Source: Bacteroidaceae bacterium (GTDB lineage Bacteria > Bacteroidota > Bacteroidia > Bacteroidales > Bacteroidaceae). Taken from it: 64,000 nt of DNA. Both the position numbers and the translations under genes were made by a program. A model generated the notes under the pieces. That model did no database searches. It had not been told where the DNA came from and saw nothing but the letters and a program-made list of their open reading frames with translations. Shown in pieces: positions 7,502-61,936 of this stretch; the first letter of the stretch is position 1; each line of letters opens with the position of its first letter. The stretch spans positions 14,287-78,286 of the forward strand of contig JAFUSD010000002.1 of the NCBI GenBank assembly GCA_017480685.1, written 5' to 3'.

Positions 7502-7582
7502 GAGGATATCCTTGCGGGTCGTTGAGGATATCCTCGCGGGCTGTTGAGGATATCCTCACAGGGTGTTGAGGATATCCTCGCC
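7502..7582 (+). repeat. 22-bp tandem array, GAGGATATCCTC-core family, ~3.5 units
   Basis: Units: gaggatatccttgcgggtcgtt / gaggatatcctcgcgggctgtt / gaggatatcctcacagggtgtt / gaggatatcctcgcc. Intergenic between the comM stop and the CE8 start. Confidence 0.95.
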
Positions 7583-10747: not shown

Positions 10748-10792
10748 TACTTCAATTCCTAAGTCTTTCAGTCGTTCAACACTTTAAGATTC

Positions 10793-10905
10793 TAATCCTT
10801 CAATCCTTTAAGGTTTTTAATCCTTCAATCCTTTAAGGTTTTTAATCCTTCAATCCTTTAAGGTTTTTAATCCTTCAATCCTTTAAGGTTTTTAATCCTT
10901 CAATC
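10793..10905. repeat. 25-bp perfect tandem repeat x4.5 filling the trkA-trkH intercistronic spacer
   Basis: taatccttcaatcctttaaggtttt occurs at 10793, 10818, 10843 and 10868, plus a 13-nt partial copy that abuts the trkA stop codon (10906-10908). Degenerate copies continue to about 10750. Confidence 0.95.
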
Positions 10906-21663: not shown

Positions 21664-21743
21664 TGAGGATATCCTCACAGGCCCGCAAGGATATCCTCAC
21701 AGGCCTGCAAGGATATCGTCAACGCGTGTCGAGGATATCGTCG
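21664..21743 (-). repeat. 22-bp tandem array, GAGGATATCCTC-core family, ~3.5 units, reverse orientation
   Basis: Reverse complement reads gacgatatcctcgacacgcgtt / gacgatatccttgcaggcctgt / gaggatatccttgcgggcctgt / gaggatatcctca. Lies in the divergent rhomboid / rpsO intergenic region. Confidence 0.9.
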
Positions 21744-27165: not shown

Positions 27166-27245
27166 CACACTGAAAGCAGTACAATCACACTGAAAGCAAT
27201 ACAATCACACTGAAAGCAGTACAATCACACTGAAAGCAATAAATA
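27166..27245 (+). repeat. 20-bp tandem repeat x4 occupying the predicted 5' UTR of the DUF1599 gene
   Basis: cacactgaaagca(g/a)tacaat x4, with alternating g/a variants (units 1 and 3 are identical; 2 and 4 match until the last unit degenerates). Confidence 0.95.
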
Positions 27246-33132: not shown

Positions 33133-33233
33133 GAGAATATCCTCGCGGGCTGTTGAGGATATCCTCGCGGGCTGTTGAGGATATCCTTGCGGGCTGTTGA
33201 GGATATCCTCGCAGTGTGCCAGAGGATATCGAT
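33133..33233 (+). repeat. 22-bp tandem array, GAGGATATCCTC-core family, ~4.5 units
   Basis: gagaatatcctcgcgggctgtt / gaggatatcctcgcgggctgtt / gaggatatccttgcgggctgtt / gaggatatcctcgcagtgtgcca / gaggatatcgat. Lies between the dnaG stop and the pyrE promoter. Confidence 0.95.
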
Positions 33234-48176: not shown

Positions 48177-48298
48177 AAGGATATCCTCAACGCACCGCAA
48201 GGATATCCTCAACACACCGCAAGGATATCCTCAACGCACCGCAAGGATATCCTCAATGCATTGCAAGGATATCCTCAACGCACCGCAAGGATATCCTC
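48177..48298 (-). repeat. 22-bp tandem array, GAGGATATCCTC-core family, 5.5 units (largest), reverse orientation
   Basis: The forward strand reads aaggatatcctcaacgcaccgc x5.5, with cores at 48177, 48199, 48221, 48243, 48265 and 48287. The reverse complement is gaggatatccttgcggtgcgtt. It starts 1 nt after the flippase stop codon. Confidence 0.95.
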
Positions 48299-49447: not shown

Positions 49448-49511
49448 GTTATGATTCAGTCGAAATATATGTTATGATTCAGACGAAATATGTTATGATT
49501 CAGTCGAACAG
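49448..49511. repeat. ~22-bp tandem triplication that includes the stop codon and last codons of the PfkB kinase gene
   Basis: gttatgattcagtcgaaatatat / gttatgattcagacgaaatat / gttatgattcagtcgaacag. The third copy supplies ...LFD-TGA of the 49500-50450 gene. Confidence 0.9.
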
Positions 49512-53646: not shown

Positions 53647-56600
53647 TCAGTGTACGGCTCCTGGGGTAATTCCGAACATATCCTTGAATGCAAGGGTGAA
53701 CGATCGTTGGTCGTTGTAGCCCACCCTGTACATTGCTTCTGCCACTCCTATGGTTTGGTTTTGTAGCAACTGGTATGCATATCTCAGCCTTATGCTTCTT
53801 ATGAATTGTGATGGTGTCTGCCCTGTCAGTGCTTTCAGTTTGCGGGTGAGGGTTGATCGGCTCATCATCATGTCTGAGCACAATGCTTCAACGTCGTATT
53901 CTGACTCGGATATGTGTTGTTCTACTATGTTGATGGCGTGTTGCACAAACTGGCGGTCTATGTCGCCCACTTCCATCTCGTCGGCCGATGTCTGTGCAGC
54001 TGTATGCTGGAAGTGTTGCTGCATCTTTGCCCGTCCTGCCATGAGACTTTCGAGCAGTGAGAGCAGCACTGGTGTGTCGAATGGTTTGGGCAGGTAGGCA
54101 TCGGCTCCGGCTTTATATGATTCCACTTGGGTCTGCACCCCGGTCATGGCAGTGAGCAGTACGATGATGGTGTGGCTGAAGCGTATGTCGTTTTTTATTG
54201 TGTTGCATAGTTGTATTCCGTCCATGCGTGGCATGCTTATGTCGCTCACCACTATGCTGATGTCTTCGTTTTCTATTATGTCGAGTGCTTCTATGCCGTC
54301 GTGTGCACAGAAGACGGTGTAGTGTGTTGACAGCATGTCTTGCATTGCAGCCAGCAGTTCCAGGTTGTCTTCCACCATGAGCAGCGATGTGGTGTGTGAT
54401 GGTATGTTGGGTGTATCTGTGTGTTGTGCTGTCTTTGAGGTGGCTATGTTGGTTGTGTCGATTTGTGGTTCTCCCAGTTCGGTCTCGTCATAGCTTTGTG
54501 CGTCTATCGGCAGTTCCACCTTGAACGTGGAACCTTTGCGTGGCTGGCTTTCGAGGCTGATGGTTCCGTGGTGCAGTGTCACGAGTTCTTTGGTCAGCGA
54601 GAGTCCTATGCCGTTGCTTATGGTGCCGGCGTTTTTGCGTGATGAGTAGAAGCGGTTGAAGATGTATTTCTGTTCTTTCGGTTCTATGCCTATGCCTTCA
54701 TCGCTCACGCTCAGTGTCAGTATGTTTGCCTGCTCGGTGGCGCTGAGTGTCACCTTGCGCCCTGTGGGTGTGTATTTCATGGCGTTCGACACGAGGTTGA
54801 ACATTATCTTTTCTATCTTGTCGCGGTCTACGTATCCTTCTATGTCGTGTACAGGCAGGAGTGTCATGAACTGTATGTTGCTGTCGACCGCGAGTGGTTC
54901 GAAGCTCTCGCGGCATATTGTGCGCAGCATTTCGGTTATGTTGGTATGTTCCACATATAGTTTCATGTTGTTGCTCTCCACCTTTCTGAAGTCGAGCACC
55001 TGTTGCAGCAGTCGTTTCAGTCGCATGACGTTGGCTTGTATCAGTCGTGGTTCGTCGCTGTCTTGCTGTGGTTTCAGGCGTCCGGCCAGCAGGTTGATTA
55101 TGGTGAGTGGGGTGAGCAGTTCGTGGCTTATGCTGGTGAAGTATGTCATCTTGGCCTGCGTTATGTTGTCGGCCAGTTTCTTCTGGTTTTGCTTTTCCAG
55201 ATGGCGTTTGTAGAGCATGATGACCGTAGTTGCTGCCGCGATTGCTATCAGTGTGTAGATGATGTATGCCAGTATGGTTTCATACCATGCCGGCTGGCGA
55301 TATACGTAGAGTCGTGTTTCGGCATCGCTCCATAGTCCGTTGGTGTCGGTAGACTTTATGTGTAGTGTGTGTCGGCCTCGTGGCAGGCGGTTGTATATGG
55401 CTGTGTTGTGTCCGGCGTCCAGTTCTGTCCAGTCGTCGTCCACTCCGTCCATCTTGTATGCGTAGCGTATGTTTTGCAGGTTGGCAAAATCGAGCGACGA
55501 GAAGCTGATGGTGATGTTGTGTGCGTTGTGGCCGAGGGTTATCTCGCCGGGGCGTGCATGGTTCTTAGGGTCGAACCACACGGAGGCACCTGCCACTGAT
55601 ACATCGGTTATGTGTGGTATGACCCGTGTGGGTTTGCTTTCCAGTTTTTTCGATGGGCTCAGGGTCATGAATCCCGGAATACCTCCTATGTATATGAGGC
55701 TGTCGGTGGGGTCTATGAATACTGACGATGGCAGCAGTCTCAGCAGTGGGCACGAGGGGGTTGCGGTGGTTGTGGTGCGGAATGCTCCGTTGGCGGGGTT
55801 GTATTCTTTCACTCCCTGACTGGTCATTATCCACAGGTGGTTGAAGCAGTCGGTGTCGAGGTGTTCTATGCTTTCGCCGTTCATGCCGCAGTCTTCGGTG
55901 AAGTCGCTGTATCGTTTGCCCTCGTCTTGCGATTCGTCGAACCGGTATACGCGTCCTTCGCGTGTACCTATCCAGATGTAGGGTGCGGCGGTGGTCACGG
56001 TTATTATGTCGATTCCTAACGGGTATAGGTGTGACTCGCCGCCTGGGGTCACCTTCAGCAGTCCTTGTCCGCGCACAGCACACCAGATGTTGTGTTGTCT
56101 GTCTTCTGCCATGTCGGCTATCTCGCCGTCGGTGGTGCCTATGTGTCGTGGCAGGCTGCTGTCGTGGGGCATCATGTATAGTCCGTGTCGGGTACCCATC
56201 CACAGGTTGCAGCCTGTGTCTTCGTATGCAGTGGTGATTCCGGCTCTCTCGTCTTGCTCCACACCGGTGCTCACCCGCTTTATCATTGTCAGGTTCATGC
56301 CTTGGCGCTCCAGCAGTATGGCTTCGTAGCTATAGACAGCCCATACGCGCTGTGTGTGCGTGTGTGATGGTATGAGGTGTTGTGTGAGGTATAGCGGCAG
56401 CTTGTTCACCTGTGGCAGTTTCATGTAGTCGGTCCATGAGTCGGTGGCGGCATCATACAGCCACAGGTTGTTGCGTTTCTGCATCACCCAGTACACACCG
56501 CCGCCGTCTCTGCATAGTGCCATCACCGATGGTGCGAAGTGTGTGAGGTGTGCCAGTGTGGGCAGGGTGTCGTATTTTATGCGGTTGCCGTCAAGGTCTA

Positions 56601-57582
56601 TGACGAAGCTCTGCGAGTCGAAGCCGGTGACCCACAGGCGCCCGTCGCCGCGTTTGTCTATGCTGTTGTATATGTAGTTGTTCTGCGGCAGCATTCCGGC
56701 GGTGGAGAGCCGTTGCAGATGGCCCTCGGCAGAGGGTCGGAACACGTACAGGCCGCGGTAGTATGCAATTGCCCAGATGTATCCGTAGCGGTCGTCCTGC
56801 ACCAGGTGGGTGTAGAGCGTGATGCGGTGTCCGTAGTCGTCCATCACGTCGGGTTGCCGTTCTACCACGGGTGGTGTGCCGTCGTGTCCTTCCACGTATT
56901 TCATGAAACCATCGTTGCGGTCGCAGAGCCAGTAGCAGCCGTTGGCACGATCGTGAATCATGGCCGACACCTCAATGCCTTCCACCTTGGTGTCAAACCG
57001 CCCGGTGGCCACATCCAGCACCTGAAGCCCCATTCCGTAGCGCGATACCCAGAGGCGTCCGTAGCCATCTTCATAGAGGCAGAAGATGGGCCCCGTGTCG
57101 TACATCCTCAGTATCCGGCCCTCGGCACTTATGTGATACAGGTGGCGGGTGCCCATGGCCCATATCGAGCCGTCGGCCGATGCCAGCATAAACTCCACAC
57201 GTGTGTTCATCAGCTCATCGTCGCCCACGCGCTCCATCTCAAACGTGCCGGGGTTCATGCGTATGAGCCCTGCCGAGGTGGCTACCCACAAGTGGTCCGA
57301 CCCGTCTTCGGCTATGACCGTCACCTCGTTCACATCGAGAGCATCGGGGCGGAACACATTCTTGCGAAACACGTGTATTGCATAGCCGTCGTCGCGGCAC
57401 AGGCCGTTCGTGGTGCCATACCACACATAGCCATGCGAGTCTTGAAACACCTGGGTCACCTCGTTCAGAGGCTGGCTGCCGCTATGGCTGAGGGGCGATA
57501 TGCTCACATCCTCGAGCTGGGCATGCACACAGCAGGTTTCCCACAGCATGGCTGCAAACAGCACAATCAGACGTATGTTCAT
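53647..57582 (-). CDS. Hybrid two-component system sensor/regulator (HTCS): periplasmic beta-propeller/Y_Y_Y, HisKA-HATPase, receiver, AraC HTH
   Basis: 1311-aa ORF with a signal peptide. Reg_prop-type repeats (GYVWYGTTNGL, LWVATSAGL). One TM helix. H-box SISHELLTPL. The ATPase has an N box (LVSNAMKY) and GIGLSL. Receiver DISMPRMDG...KPFD. The C-terminal AraC HTH ends MFGITPGAVH. Confidence 0.92.
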   Translation of the reverse strand: MNIRLIVLFAAMLWETCCVHAQLEDVSISPLSHSGSQPLNEVTQVFQDSHGYVWYGTTNGLCRDDGYAIHVFRKNVFRPDALDVNEVTVIAEDGSDHLWVATSAGLIRMNPGTFEMERVGDDELMNTRVEFMLASADGSIWAMGTRHLYHISAEGRILRMYDTGPIFCLYEDGYGRLWVSRYGMGLQVLDVATGRFDTKVEGIEVSAMIHDRANGCYWLCDRNDGFMKYVEGHDGTPPVVERQPDVMDDYGHRITLYTHLVQDDRYGYIWAIAYYRGLYVFRPSAEGHLQRLSTAGMLPQNNYIYNSIDKRGDGRLWVTGFDSQSFVIDLDGNRIKYDTLPTLAHLTHFAPSVMALCRDGGGVYWVMQKRNNLWLYDAATDSWTDYMKLPQVNKLPLYLTQHLIPSHTHTQRVWAVYSYEAILLERQGMNLTMIKRVSTGVEQDERAGITTAYEDTGCNLWMGTRHGLYMMPHDSSLPRHIGTTDGEIADMAEDRQHNIWCAVRGQGLLKVTPGGESHLYPLGIDIITVTTAAPYIWIGTREGRVYRFDESQDEGKRYSDFTEDCGMNGESIEHLDTDCFNHLWIMTSQGVKEYNPANGAFRTTTTATPSCPLLRLLPSSVFIDPTDSLIYIGGIPGFMTLSPSKKLESKPTRVIPHITDVSVAGASVWFDPKNHARPGEITLGHNAHNITISFSSLDFANLQNIRYAYKMDGVDDDWTELDAGHNTAIYNRLPRGRHTLHIKSTDTNGLWSDAETRLYVYRQPAWYETILAYIIYTLIAIAAATTVIMLYKRHLEKQNQKKLADNITQAKMTYFTSISHELLTPLTIINLLAGRLKPQQDSDEPRLIQANVMRLKRLLQQVLDFRKVESNNMKLYVEHTNITEMLRTICRESFEPLAVDSNIQFMTLLPVHDIEGYVDRDKIEKIMFNLVSNAMKYTPTGRKVTLSATEQANILTLSVSDEGIGIEPKEQKYIFNRFYSSRKNAGTISNGIGLSLTKELVTLHHGTISLESQPRKGSTFKVELPIDAQSYDETELGEPQIDTTNIATSKTAQHTDTPNIPSHTTSLLMVEDNLELLAAMQDMLSTHYTVFCAHDGIEALDIIENEDISIVVSDISMPRMDGIQLCNTIKNDIRFSHTIIVLLTAMTGVQTQVESYKAGADAYLPKPFDTPVLLSLLESLMAGRAKMQQHFQHTAAQTSADEMEVGDIDRQFVQHAINIVEQHISESEYDVEALCSDMMMSRSTLTRKLKALTGQTPSQFIRSIRLRYAYQLLQNQTIGVAEAMYRVGYNDQRSFTLAFKDMFGITPGAVH

Positions 57583-57818
57583 GATATATGATGAGTGATG
57601 ATTAATTAATATGATTAAGCAATAAGCGGGAGAATTTCCCCCTCATTCTGCAGCTGCGGGGCGACGAAAACGGCACGCACACACGTCAAGCCTGCTGAAA
57701 AGATACGAAATAATACGATATGCAGGTTGACTAAAGCACAACAAAATGCCCCGAAAGCCCGAAAAAAACGGCAAAAGCAAGAGCATGCATCCACCTGCCG
57801 GTATCGATGGCAGGAAAC

Positions 57819-57919
57819 AACGATATCCTCGCGGGCCGTTGACGATATCCTCGCAGGGCGTTGACGATATCCTCGCGGGCCGTTGACGATATCCTCGCAG
57901 GGCGTTGACGATATCCTCA
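57819..57919 (+). repeat. 22-bp tandem array, variant GACGATATCCTC core, 4.5 units with a 44-bp higher-order alternation
   Basis: aacgatatcctcgcgggccgtt / gacgatatcctcgcagggcgtt / gacgatatcctcgcgggccgtt / gacgatatcctcgcagggcgtt / gacgatatcctca. Lies in the divergent HTCS / thioesterase intergenic region. Confidence 0.95.
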
Positions 57920-58109
57920 TTTTTCACCACCCATATCAGTGCACCAAAACACTACCACCTACTGACTGCACCGACACCCACGCCGCCGCCCGCTGCGCCC
58001 CCCGTCGTTTTTACACCCGTTATGAAGAAAACGGACACTGACAGTCATGTTTTTTTGCCTCTGCATAAAAATAATACGCAATAAACATCCAGCATAATGA
58101 ATTATTTCG

Positions 58110-58117
58110 TACCTTTG
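58110..58117 (+). promoter_or_regulatory. -7 promoter box TACCTTTG upstream of the thioesterase gene
   Basis: tatttcgTACCTTTGtctcg, 37 nt upstream of the ATG at 58154. Confidence 0.55.
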
Positions 58118-58153: not shown

Positions 58154-58576
58154 ATGCTTACACAAGAAGAATGCAACCTACTGAACCACCACACCGCCGG
58201 CACCATGATGCAGGCGCTGGGCATGACATTCGTACCTACCGACGACGATGCCGTGGTGGTAGACATGCCCATATCGCCGGCCTGCAGGCAACACCAAGGC
58301 ATAGTTCATGGCGGAGCCTACCTGGCACTGGCCGAGACGGCAGCAGGAGCCGGCTCGATACACGTGGCAGGCACAGACTGCAGCGTGTGCGGCATAGAAG
58401 TGAGCGGCAACCACCTCGCCATGTCGCCCACAGAGGGAGTGGTGAGGGCCAGGGCAACACTGCTCTCGGCAGGACGGACAATACACGTCTGGAACGTAGA
58501 TATTGCCGATGAAACCGGACAAACACTGTCGACTGCAAGAGTGGTGAACCGCATAAATAAAGTAACAGACAATTGA
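58154..58576 (+). CDS. PaaI-family hotdog-fold acyl-CoA thioesterase
   Basis: 140-aa ORF. NHHTAGTMMQALGMTFV...QGIVHGGAYLALAETAAG is the typical PaaI/YdiI pattern. Confidence 0.85.
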   Translation: MLTQEECNLLNHHTAGTMMQALGMTFVPTDDDAVVVDMPISPACRQHQGIVHGGAYLALAETAAGAGSIHVAGTDCSVCGIEVSGNHLAMSPTEGVVRARATLLSAGRTIHVWNVDIADETGQTLSTARVVNRINKVTDN

Positions 58577-61826: not shown

Positions 61827-61936
61827 TGGTAGATTTACCAATAACAAACTGTAGATGTACTAATATAAAACCGTGGATGTACTAATATAAAACCGTGGAT
61901 GTACTAATATAAAACCGTGGATGTACAAATAATAAA
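61827..61936. repeat. 22-bp tandem repeat, 2 perfect plus 3 degenerate units, upstream of tdk; followed by an AAATAGT heptamer tract (61937-61968)
   Basis: ccgtggatgtactaatataaaa at 61871 and 61893. Variants at 61849 (ctgtagatg...) and 61915 (...gtacaaataataaa), plus a degenerate copy at 61827. Then tggtaaatagtaaattagtaaatagtaaataag. Confidence 0.9.

What the first reader, a model, noticed from the sequence alone, without database searches (positions are those of the whole stretch)
57819..57919. Variant array of the 22-bp family with an imperfect core and a 44-bp higher-order period in a divergent regulatory region
Here the core is GACGATATCCTC, so the palindrome is broken at one position. 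The spacers strictly alternate gcgggccgtt / gcagggcgtt, so units 1 and 3 have identical spacers, as do units 2 and 4. The array therefore expanded as a 44-bp dimer, not as single units.

It sits in the 571-bp divergent region between the HTCS sensor (start 57582) and the PaaI thioesterase promoter (box at 58110). Protein binding or altered DNA structure here could affect both promoters.

Just upstream lies a short hairpin, cctgcc-ggtatcgat-ggcagg, containing another small palindrome (ATCGAT). The same GAC variant core appears in two units of the 21664-21743 array, which links the loci by descent or by gene conversion.
Basis: seen in the sequence. Interest (0 to 1): 0.6.

Follow-up and report, generated by a model that had tools for sequence, protein, structure and literature searches.

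The report
Promoter-phased palindrome array upstream of HTCS
This 100-bp repeat is one of about 160 four-palindrome arrays that sit a whole number of DNA turns upstream of promoters in an uncultured rumen Bacteroidales species, and the sister species carries arrays with a different palindrome in many of the same places.

Summary
In detail: five cores 22 bp apart at 57819-57918, with spacers alternating A/B (44-bp period, 100% match).

- The GAC core is not a private link to the 21664 array. It makes up 36% of all 669 cores genome-wide.
- Strains carry 5 cores (ABAB or ACAB), 4 (CAB) or 3 (AB), so both 22-bp and 44-bp steps occur. The 3-core allele may be an assembly collapse.
- ABAB and ACAB differ by a single base.

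The array belongs to a family of about 160 intergenic arrays, with a modal copy number of 4.
- Closely related species carry the same architecture with core GAGTGCGCACTC, often in the same intergenic slots. One such array lies upstream of this HTCS gene's orthologues.
- Array edges lie at helically phased distances from outward-facing Bacteroidetes -7 boxes (period 10.9 bp, p=7e-10). The sister species replicates this (p=3e-6, same phase).
- This array is on phase with both flanking promoters.

My best reading (confidence 0.5) is a stack of dimer-binding sites acting on promoters from one face of the helix.

The parts
57819..57918 (.). The array. Five 12-bp cores at 57819, 57841, 57863, 57885 and 57907 (AACGATATCCTC, then GACGATATCCTC x4). 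They are separated by 10-bp spacers A=gcgggccgtt and B=gcagggcgtt in the order A B A B.
   Evidence: strain alleles
57794..57814 (.). Small hairpin cctgcc-ggtatcgat-ggcagg next to the array on the HTCS side. The stretch 57797-57818 matches a unit at 10 of 22 positions (counted by eye). It may be a decayed unit, or old flank.
   Evidence: partial homology to the G017 flank TTTCCTGCCAATCG
57698..57713 (-). Likely HTCS promoter, TTATTTCGTATCTTTT. Its -7-like box TATCTTTT is at 57705-57698, 113 bp from the array edge (3 mod 11).
   Evidence: The motif matches CATTTATTTCGTAAnTTTGCA upstream of the HTCS orthologues in G014 and G017, where the array-to-box distance is 70 bp.
58100..58117 (+). PaaI/4HBT promoter, AATTATTTCGTACCTTTG. 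Its -7 box TACCTTTG is at 58110-58117, 191 bp from the array edge (4 mod 11).
   Evidence: identical motif in L003 and G024
53647..57582 (-). Hybrid two-component system gene, 1311 aa (Y_Y_Y, HisKA, HATPase_c, Response_reg, HTH_18).
58154..58576 (+). 4HBT (PaaI-type) thioesterase gene, 140 aa.
7502..7579 (.). Family array, 4 cores. A GACYGCGCACTC array occupies the same slot in sister species G024 (L086 11109).
21665..21742 (.). Family array between the rhomboid gene and rpsO, 4 cores (4, 5 or 6 among strains). GAGTGCGCACTC-type arrays lie upstream of the rhomboid gene in G014 and G017. G024 has none there.
33133..33210 (.). Family array between dnaG and pyrE, 4 cores in all strains seen. GAGTGCGCACTC-type arrays lie upstream of pyrE in G024, G014 and G017.
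48177..48298 (.). Family array, 6 cores (AAGGATATCCTC), starting 1 bp after a stop codon. A GAGTGCGCACTC-type array follows the orthologous gene in G024.

Best explanation
The array is one locus of a lineage-specific family of intergenic modules. Each module has four or more copies of a 12-16-bp palindrome (RY-GAGGATATCCTC-RY) spaced exactly 22 bp apart. That spacing equals two turns of DNA as measured in living bacteria, so all sites face the same side of the helix.

This locus is the old upstream module of the HTCS gene. Two related species have an equivalent array upstream of the orthologous HTCS promoter, with the ancestral core GAGTGCGCACTC.

I infer that each palindrome binds a dimer of one abundant sequence-specific protein. 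The resulting stack would act on promoters 6-17 helical turns away, by bending, looping or direct contact. This reading is consistent with array edges lying at distances of about 70+11k bp from outward-facing -7 boxes. Here the distances are 113 bp to the HTCS box and 191 bp to the PaaI box.

The GAC core is a common subfamily variant. The ABAB spacer pattern and the strain differences (3, 4 or 5 cores) are ordinary unit-level slippage or conversion. Changes in whole units keep the helical phase.

In this species a minor core variant (GATATC centre) has replaced the ancestral TGCGCA centre at most loci. That implies copying between loci, or re-insertion at the same slots.

Shown here: the anatomy, the census, the strain alleles, the shared positions and the promoter phasing. 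Inferred: the binding protein, the effect on transcription and the replacement mechanism.
For: Census in this genome:
- 159 arrays with at least 3 cores. Clusters under a strict core definition: 4 cores (84, of which 82 lie away from contig ends), 5 (40), 6 (16), 3 (15), 2 (10).
- Cores are nearly invariant (1.3-2.0 bits per position). The central spacer positions are close to random, and 77 of 150 arrays have all spacers different.

Promoter link:
- 153 outward-facing against 39 inward-facing TAnnTTTG boxes lie within 400 bp of array edges, with a mode at 122-127 bp.
- The distances are periodic at 10.9 bp (R=0.37, p=7e-10, n=152) and not at 22 bp (p=0.08). Both halves of the genome give the same phase.
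- The intervening sequences are unrelated to one another.
- 68% of arrays have an outward box at 60-215 bp, against 21% of control intergenic points.
- Replication in sister species G024, which has a different core: 49 arrays, mode 4 copies, 43 outward against 10 inward boxes, R=0.55, p=2.6e-6, same phase.
- The effective helical repeat in vivo is about 11 bp per turn (PMC3001091).

This locus:
- GACTGCGCACTC x4 and GAGTGCGCAGTC x3 arrays lie 70 bp from the -7 box of the HTCS orthologues in G014 and G017.

Shared positions:
- 24 of 49 G024 arrays have an array in the same slot in this genome. By comparison, 14% of this genome's intergenic regions hold one.
- Four of the five window arrays have counterparts in relatives.

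Founder:
- The one GATATC-type array in G024 is orthologous to C271:30474 in this genome.
Against: - No binding protein was identified, and no expression data could be used.
- Phasing could come from a targeted insertion mechanism rather than from function.
- About a third of arrays have no canonical -7 box nearby, and 18 lie between convergent genes.
- Gene calls came from a crude ORF picker, and promoters were recognised only by the TAnnTTTG motif.
- Copy number at this locus varies among strains, so the exact number is not strictly constrained.
- 25 of 49 sister-species arrays have no counterpart here, so gain and loss are frequent, as expected of mobile DNA.
- Sequence identity across about 160 loci needs a copying process, and I could not identify one.
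Confidence: 0.5

Rival explanations
1. Selfish, non-autonomous mobile minisatellite of the REP/BIME, REPIN or BrickBuilt kind. An unidentified enzyme copies arrays into intergenic DNA, preferring a defined distance and helix face upstream of promoters. Arrays have no host function, and the subfamily take-over is ordinary mobile-element dynamics.
For: - A species-level subfamily replaced another, starting from a single founder-type array.
- Gains and losses between sister species are frequent: 25 of 49 arrays are unshared.
- Flanks carry A/T tracts (gaaaaaY ... Rttttt or ttttgc ... gcaaaa) in both core families, which could mark element ends or a target preference.
- Arrays occur in all intergenic contexts roughly in proportion to the long spacers available.
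- Copy number is polymorphic.
Against: - No Y1 (RAYT) transposase, no rve integrase and no reverse transcriptase was found in the 90%-complete assembly.
- There are no conserved leader or tail sequences, no terminal inverted repeats beyond about 6 bp, and no target-site duplications were evident in the flank listing.
- Cores stay identical while spacers differ within arrays.
- Slots are retained across four species while the surrounding intergenic DNA has become unalignable.
- Copy number has a sharp mode at 4 in two species.
Confidence: 0.25
2. Protein-independent DNA structural element. Phased palindromes with GC-rich spacers and flanking A/T tracts would give curvature, cruciform or slipped structures. 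These would modulate nearby promoters or supercoiling without a dedicated binding protein.
For: - The 22-bp lattice, the A/T-tract flanks and the helical phasing with promoters.
- The centre of the core can be swapped entirely (TGCGCA to GATATC) while palindromy, frame and phase are kept.
Against: - A purely structural role does not explain why about 690 cores in one genome share one exact hexamer.
- The single-strand DNA fold of this array is no better than shuffled sequence (z=+0.33).
- A 12-bp palindrome is short for cruciform extrusion (general knowledge).
Confidence: 0.1
3. RNA-level element. Adjacent self-complementary cores would pair into 12-bp stems followed by a U run, giving bidirectional intrinsic terminators or 3'-end stabilisers.
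For: - Many arrays start 5-40 bp after a stop codon.
- About 37% of flanks are RTTTT.
- T-runs are somewhat more frequent on sides where a terminator would be needed: 48% against 34%, p=0.016.
Against: - For stop-proximal arrays the distal T-run is no more common than the proximal one (44% against 33%, p=0.23).
- 35 arrays, including this one, lie between divergent genes.
- The orientation of asymmetric cores is independent of gene direction (p=0.43).
- GAC cores would give C-C mismatches in core-core stems, yet they are the second commonest type.
- RNA folds of this array give z=-1.2 and -1.7.
- Terminators give no reason for 11-bp phasing with downstream -7 boxes.
Confidence: 0.07

Closest known systems
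REP / BIME / REPIN elements with their RAYT transposases (Proteobacteria)
   Same: - Hundreds of extragenic palindromic repeats per genome.
- Species-specific sequence classes that change between related lineages (PMC3686654).
- Some serve as binding sites for nucleoid proteins (PMC2817692 abstract).
   Different: - Here the units are head-to-tail at a fixed 22 bp with a modal copy number of 4, not inverted pairs or alternating clusters.
- The palindrome is 12-16 bp, not about 35 bp.
- No Y1 transposase is detectable.
- Arrays are helically phased with promoters.
BrickBuilt minisatellite/MITE of Porphyromonas gingivalis (PMC4596501)
   Same: - Bacteroidales host.
- Tandem 23-nt units, always intergenic (49-591 nt from genes).
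- Species-restricted.
- Linked to promoter activity.
   Different: - BrickBuilt has 19 copies, no spacer structure, conserved leader and tail subunits with inverted-repeat ends, and carries promoters itself.
- Here there are about 160 copies, a palindromic core plus a variable spacer, and no leader or tail.
- Promoters lie 70-200 bp away in unique DNA.
Helically phased upstream activator or architectural sites (for example Fis sites upstream of E. coli rRNA promoters, or CRP and IHF sites); stated from general knowledge
   Same: - Multiple dimer sites upstream of a promoter.
- Position is restricted to one face of the helix.
- Effective period is near 11 bp in vivo (PMC3001091).
   Different: - Those sites are degenerate and few per promoter, and are not exact tandem repeats.
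- Here the same exact 4-site cassette recurs at about 160 loci and is replaced wholesale between sister species.
- No protein is known.
Plasmid iterons
   Same: Direct repeats of 17-22 bp, 3-7 copies, about 22-bp register, same helix face (general knowledge).
   Different: Iterons sit at one origin next to a rep gene and an AT-rich region. These arrays sit at about 160 chromosomal intergenic sites beside housekeeping genes.

Membership tests
REP/BIME/REPIN-RAYT | A cognate RAYT (Y1 tyrosine transposase, PF01797) gene in the genome, flanked by the repeats | tested here: not met
   PF01797 gave no match in the 90%-complete assembly, while the control genomes did match.
REP/BIME/REPIN-RAYT | Units occur as inverted pairs or in alternating orientation | tested here: not met
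   All arrays are head-to-tail at 22 bp.
REP/BIME/REPIN-RAYT | Abundant, extragenic, palindromic | tested here: met
   159 arrays, all intergenic apart from spurious ORFs created by the repeat itself; 12-bp perfect palindrome core.
BrickBuilt-type MITE minisatellite | Conserved leader and tail subunits with small inverted-repeat ends around the tandem units | tested here: not met
   Flank information content is below 0.3 bits beyond position +2. Only an R-Y step and an A/T tract recur.
BrickBuilt-type MITE minisatellite | Tandem units of about 23 nt, intergenic, species-restricted | tested here: met
   22-bp units. One foreign hit in 185,579 species genomes, on a contig whose array flank is identical over 50 bp to this genome's C83 locus (by eye). 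0 of 24 same-genus genomes have the GATATC type with three cores.
BrickBuilt-type MITE minisatellite | Sequence similarity to the BrickBuilt unit | not tested
   The BrickBuilt sequence was not retrieved.
Intrinsic terminator | Stable hairpin followed by a U run at the 3' end of transcription units | tested here: not met
   This array lies between divergent genes. Fold z-scores are -1.2 and -1.7. The genome-wide T-run test is weak or null.
Plasmid iteron origin | Adjacent rep gene and AT-rich region; one or a few loci per replicon | tested here: not met
   The neighbours here are HTCS and a thioesterase; elsewhere rpsO, pyrE and dnaG. There are about 160 loci.
Phased upstream protein-binding (architectural/activator) sites | Located upstream of promoters, oriented towards them | tested here: met
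   153 outward against 39 inward -7 boxes; 68% against 21% in controls; 43 against 10 in G024.
Phased upstream protein-binding (architectural/activator) sites | Distance to the promoter restricted to one helix face | tested here: met
   Period 10.9 bp, p=7e-10. Split halves and the sister species agree in phase.
Phased upstream protein-binding (architectural/activator) sites | A protein binds the sites and changes transcription | not testable with these tools

The most novel reading that the evidence does not exclude
A previously unknown global promoter-architecture system in a rumen Bacteroidales clade. One abundant DNA-binding protein would read cassettes of four phased palindromes placed a whole number of helical turns upstream of more than 100 promoters. 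The cassette sequence would be rewritten genome-wide when specificity shifts: TGCGCA to GATATC between sister species, at shared slots. That would be concerted evolution of dispersed cis-elements by an unknown copying or homing mechanism.
Probability: 0.3. Interest if true: 0.85.

Novelty: new variant of a known kind. Interest (0 to 1): 0.68.

Why it matters
If the arrays are protein-binding cassettes, they mark a large, cleanly defined regulon-like architecture in Bacteroidales, a group whose promoter-upstream control is poorly understood. The cassette is exact and portable, which makes it easy to test.

The sister-species core swap at shared slots is a natural experiment in how a dispersed set of cis-elements and its reader co-evolve, or in how a repeat family homogenises across about 100 loci.

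There is also a practical point. These arrays break short-read assemblies: many contigs end in them. They are also copy-number polymorphic, so they are useful strain markers and a source of assembly artefacts.

Tried and rejected
- **Rfam** scan of the spacer gave only a chance snoRNA hit at E=0.74.
- **Literature** search for the core strings and for Bacteroidales tandem repeats found nothing relevant.
- **Restriction-modification avoidance** as the driver of the core swap was rejected. TGCGCA and GATATC outside arrays have observed/expected ratios of 0.74-0.90 in both species.
- **RAYT, rve integrase or reverse transcriptase** as the mobiliser or writer: none was found.
- **Terminator** reading: weak or null.
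- **Strand-specific function**: asymmetric-core orientation is independent of gene direction.
- **Retention of old spacers** at converted loci: orthologous spacers are not significantly more alike than random pairs (P=0.16-0.26).
- **Replacement of the immediate flanks**: not interpretable, because intergenic DNA is mostly unalignable at this divergence.
- **Empty site**: the apparent one (L060) is a scaffold gap of Ns.
- **My first orthology estimate** (11 of 13) was too high. With three times more sister-genome sequence it is 24 of 49, or 24 of 35 counting only cases where an array was found or both flanks mapped.
- **Founder-locus neighbours** (nhaA, two AraC-type genes) gave no convincing candidate reader.

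Full report
**Observation.** The array is exactly as described. Five cores lie 22 bp apart at 57819-57918. The first reads AACGATATCCTC and the other four GACGATATCCTC. The spacers alternate gcgggccgtt (A) and gcagggcgtt (B). TRF scores the 44-bp period at 100% matches. Cores of this family (up to 1 mismatch) occur 21 times in the window against 0.13 expected. The flanking genes are a 1311-aa hybrid two-component system (HTCS) on the minus strand, starting at 57582, and a 140-aa 4HBT/PaaI-type thioesterase starting at 58154.

**The family in this genome.**
- The window is part of a 2.83-Mb, 288-contig, 51% GC assembly. Same-species contigs come from ruminant gut metagenomes.
- I found 159 arrays with at least 3 cores in 22-bp register.
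- Under a strict core definition the copy-number distribution is sharply peaked. Counting all clusters, including the few at contig ends: 4 cores (84), 5 (40), 6 (16), 3 (15), 2 (10), solo (15, many of them chance matches inside genes).
- Core positions carry 1.3-2.0 bits each, while the middle of the spacer is nearly random.
- The spacer frame is [GC|AC|AAC]nnnn[GC|GT|GTT], so the real site is a 16-bp palindrome, RY-GAGGATATCCTC-RY.
- 77 of 150 arrays have all spacers different, and only 7 have all spacers identical.
- Flanks are not conserved beyond an R-Y step and an A/T tract (gaaaaaY...Rttttt or ttttgc...gcaaaa).
- All arrays are intergenic. That call used a crude ORF picker. The 'inside gene' cases are ORFs created by the repeat itself, as at 57615-57920.

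- The GAC core is not special. GACGATATCCTC or its complement GAGGATATCGTC makes up 244 of 669 cores, dominates 55 of 150 arrays and occurs in 74 of 150.
- GAC-type arrays are somewhat longer than symmetric-core arrays (mean 4.7-4.9 against 4.3 cores). They are also more homogeneous (neighbouring-spacer identity 0.83-0.85 against 0.71).
- Strict spacer alternation is rare: 8 of 142 arrays, and only this one and C275:3415 show a full ABAB.

*Strain comparison.* Looking up contigs that encode the identical thioesterase gave other strains.

| Spacer order | Cores | Contigs |
|---|---|---|
| A B A B | 5 | window, L046, L051 |
| A C A B (C=gcaggccgtt) | 5 | L048, L050, L052 |
| C A B | 4 | L049 |
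| A B | 3 | L047, plus 2 similar contigs not shown |

- Caveat: L047 and L046 have 0 differences over 6.4 kb and come from different assemblers. The 3-core allele may therefore be a collapsed perfect repeat.
- ABAB and ACAB differ by one base. Flanking SNPs do not polarise the events. The ACAB strains form a tight group, yet the most divergent strain also carries C.
- The rpsO array has 4, 5 or 6 cores among strains. The pyrE array always has 4, with point differences in both a core and a spacer.

**Distribution and core replacement.**
- Two perfect GATATC cores at 22 bp occur in only one other record among 185,579 species genomes. That record is a 2.5-kb contig. Its flank next to the array is identical over 50 bp to the flank of this genome's C83:12399 array (compared by eye), and it carries 6 cores instead of 4.
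- None of 24 same-genus genomes has three GATATC cores in register.
- The three closest species by thioesterase identity are G024 (87%), G014 (77%) and G017 (73%). They carry the same architecture with core GAGTGCGCACTC and GC-rich 10-bp spacers.
- In 1.17 Mb of G024 I found 49 such arrays, 34 of them with 4 cores.
- This genome keeps five relic arrays of that type.
- G024 and G014 each keep one GATATC-type array. The one in G024 is orthologous to C271:30474 here, downstream of nhaA.
- So a minor variant took over in this lineage.
- Other core centres exist at low copy elsewhere: GAGGTGCACCTC in G001 and GAGGGTATGCTC in G069. In 200 genomes from 33 genera of the family, the three-core pattern is otherwise almost absent.

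**Shared positions.**
- Of the 49 G024 arrays, 24 have an array in the same slot here (22 GATATC type, 2 relics). Another 11 have none with both flanks mapped, and 14 have none with one flank mapped.
- The background rate is 125 of 885 intergenic regions (14%).
- At the L085/C204 locus, homology runs to within about 20-60 bp of both arrays.
- Four of the five window arrays have counterparts of the other core type in at least one relative.
- The pyrE array is present in all four species although the surrounding spacer no longer aligns.

*This array's own history.* The HTCS orthologues of G014 and G017 (59-60% aa identity) each have a GAGTGCGCACTC-family array in their divergent upstream region: GACTGCGCACTC x4 and GAGTGCGCAGTC x3. 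In both species the array ends 70 bp before the -7 box of a conserved promoter motif, CATTTATTTCGTAAnTTTGCA.

In this genome the same motif (TTATTTCGTATCTTTT, 57713-57698, minus strand) lies 113 bp from the array. The other neighbour differs between species. PaaI is not next to the HTCS in G024, L003, G014 or G017. So the array travels with the HTCS side.

**Promoter association and phasing.** This is the main new result.
- Within 400 bp of array edges there are 153 outward-facing TAnnTTTG boxes (the Bacteroidetes -7 element) against 39 inward-facing ones. The mode is at 122-127 bp.
- At 1-bp resolution the distances fall in a ladder: about 70, 81, 92, 102, 114, 124, 136, 147, 158, 169, 180, 191.
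- The Rayleigh test peaks at 10.8-11.0 bp (R=0.37, p=7e-10 at 10.9 bp, n=152). There is no signal at 22 bp (p=0.08) or at other periods. Control motifs give no clear signal at 11 or 22 bp (p 0.08-0.97, n=13-26).
- Both halves of the contig set give the same phase (p=1.3e-5 and 2.9e-4).
- The DNA between array and promoter is unique at each locus, so the promoter is not part of a repeated element.
- 68% of arrays have at least one outward box at 60-215 bp, against 21% of control points in array-free spacers.
- The sister species, with its different core, replicates the result independently: 43 outward against 10 inward boxes, R=0.55, p=2.6e-6, same phase (3.5 against 3.9 at period 11).
- The effective helical repeat measured by looping in living E. 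coli is about 11 bp per turn (PMC3001091). That matches both the 22-bp unit and this periodicity.
- The present array lies 191 bp from the PaaI box and 113 bp from the HTCS box. These give residues 4 and 3 mod 11, inside the peak at residues 3-6.
- Whole-unit copy-number changes preserve the relative phase of the two divergent promoters.

**Rivals tested.**
- *Terminator or RNA hairpin.* T-runs are only weakly enriched where a terminator would be needed (48% against 34%, p=0.016). They are not enriched on the distal side of stop-proximal arrays (44% against 33%, p=0.23). Core asymmetry ignores gene direction. Folds of this array are unexceptional (z=-1.2, -1.7 and +0.33).
- *Restriction avoidance* does not explain the core swap.
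- *Mobile-element machinery.* No Y1 transposase, rve integrase or reverse transcriptase was found. The assembly is 90% complete, and repeats are often unassembled in MAGs.
- A targeted-insertion, no-function reading remains the main rival. It is favoured by the frequent gain and loss between sister species and by the subfamily take-over.

**Mechanism.**
- Shown: the exact 22-bp lattice of palindromes, a modal copy number of four in two species, promoter-proximal placement with helical phasing, positional conservation with sequence replacement, and unit-level slippage among strains.
- Inferred: that a dimeric protein binds each palindrome, that the stack influences promoters, and that replacement proceeds by copying between arrays or re-insertion at the same slots.
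- All six central bases differ between the two core types, so gradual point mutation is excluded. Homology between the two array types is too short for ordinary RecA-dependent conversion (general knowledge).

**Comparison and novelty.** The family works most like phased upstream architectural sites and looks most like REP/BIME and BrickBuilt repeats. It fails defining features of each (see the membership table). I found no description of either core in the searchable literature. The scan had already flagged the family in this genome (e1-3827517, follow-up) and the GAGTGCGCACTC type in two other genomes (e1-4304886, e1-4434925). The promoter phasing, the slot-sharing with core replacement and the strain alleles do not appear in the summaries of those notes that I could see.

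Noticed in passing
whole genome G000 (for example window 10775-10905, 27166-27238, 49448-49508, 61832-61936): The tandem-repeat period histogram has a large spike at 22 bp (282 arrays, 160 of them the GATATC family) and at 21 bp (90). Same-genus genomes also show many 21-22-bp arrays with other sequences. The non-family 21-23-bp arrays also favour outward-facing -7 boxes (87 against 40), but no phasing could be detected.
   Followed up: partly
G000 C207:568-833, C47:3333-3631, C6:6776-7075, C3:19963-20188; G024 L087 15539-15953, L088 19569-19837: About 35 composite elements. Each has a left arm of 22-bp units (GCGAGTGCG..AATTTTGCT type), then four 21-bp AT-rich palindromes (TAATTTGCGACGTAAATTTAA), then a right arm that is the inverted complement of the left. 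They often lie just upstream of a -7 box and a large gene. The sister species has them too.
   Followed up: partly
L003 1578-1668 and L076 (G024) about 2110-2160: Upstream of PaaI in the two nearest relatives, a different 22-bp unit (GGTTTCATTGYTGCAAAGCAAG) is repeated 4 times in L003 and 2 times in G024. It overlaps the start codon of the divergent neighbouring gene.
   Followed up: no
G000 C38:4079-4134, C116:315-426, C137:6791-6910, C190, C223:1210-1389, C263: Some arrays continue with cores spaced 55-60 bp apart. The long spacers carry another repeat (ttccccctcgcRctcccccaggggagag) with its own inverted repeat.
   Followed up: no
whole genome G000 and the 400-kb sample of G024: CATATG is strongly under-represented (observed/expected 0.21 and 0.36). 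This suggests a restriction system of that specificity in the clade.
   Followed up: no
L044 (JAFTFL010000019.1, MAG RGIG3770) 1140-1261: A 2.5-kb contig binned into another species. Its array flank is identical over 50 bp (by eye) to the flank of G000 C83:12399, but the array has 6 cores instead of 4. It is probably the same species, mis-binned.
   Followed up: partly
window 57919-58100 versus L076 and L003: HTCS-PaaI adjacency is peculiar to this species. Homology with relatives on the PaaI side starts only at the promoter motif, so a rearrangement breakpoint lies between the array and the PaaI promoter.
   Followed up: partly
G001:C59:435-512; G069:C19:14913-14968 and C38:78-133: Low-copy arrays with further core centres in the same GAG-N6-CTC, 22-bp frame: GAGGTGCACCTC and GAGGGTATGCTC.
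   Followed up: no
window 10775-10905 and L086 14496-14602: The 25-bp x5 trkA-trkH array (TTCAATCCTTTAAGGTTTTTAATCC) recurs with a near-identical unit (one base different) in the sister species.
   Followed up: no
G000 C66:41456, C212:5517, C238:25037: In three arrays the terminal unit has core AAGGACGTCCTT (GACGTC centre) next to GATATC cores.
   Followed up: no
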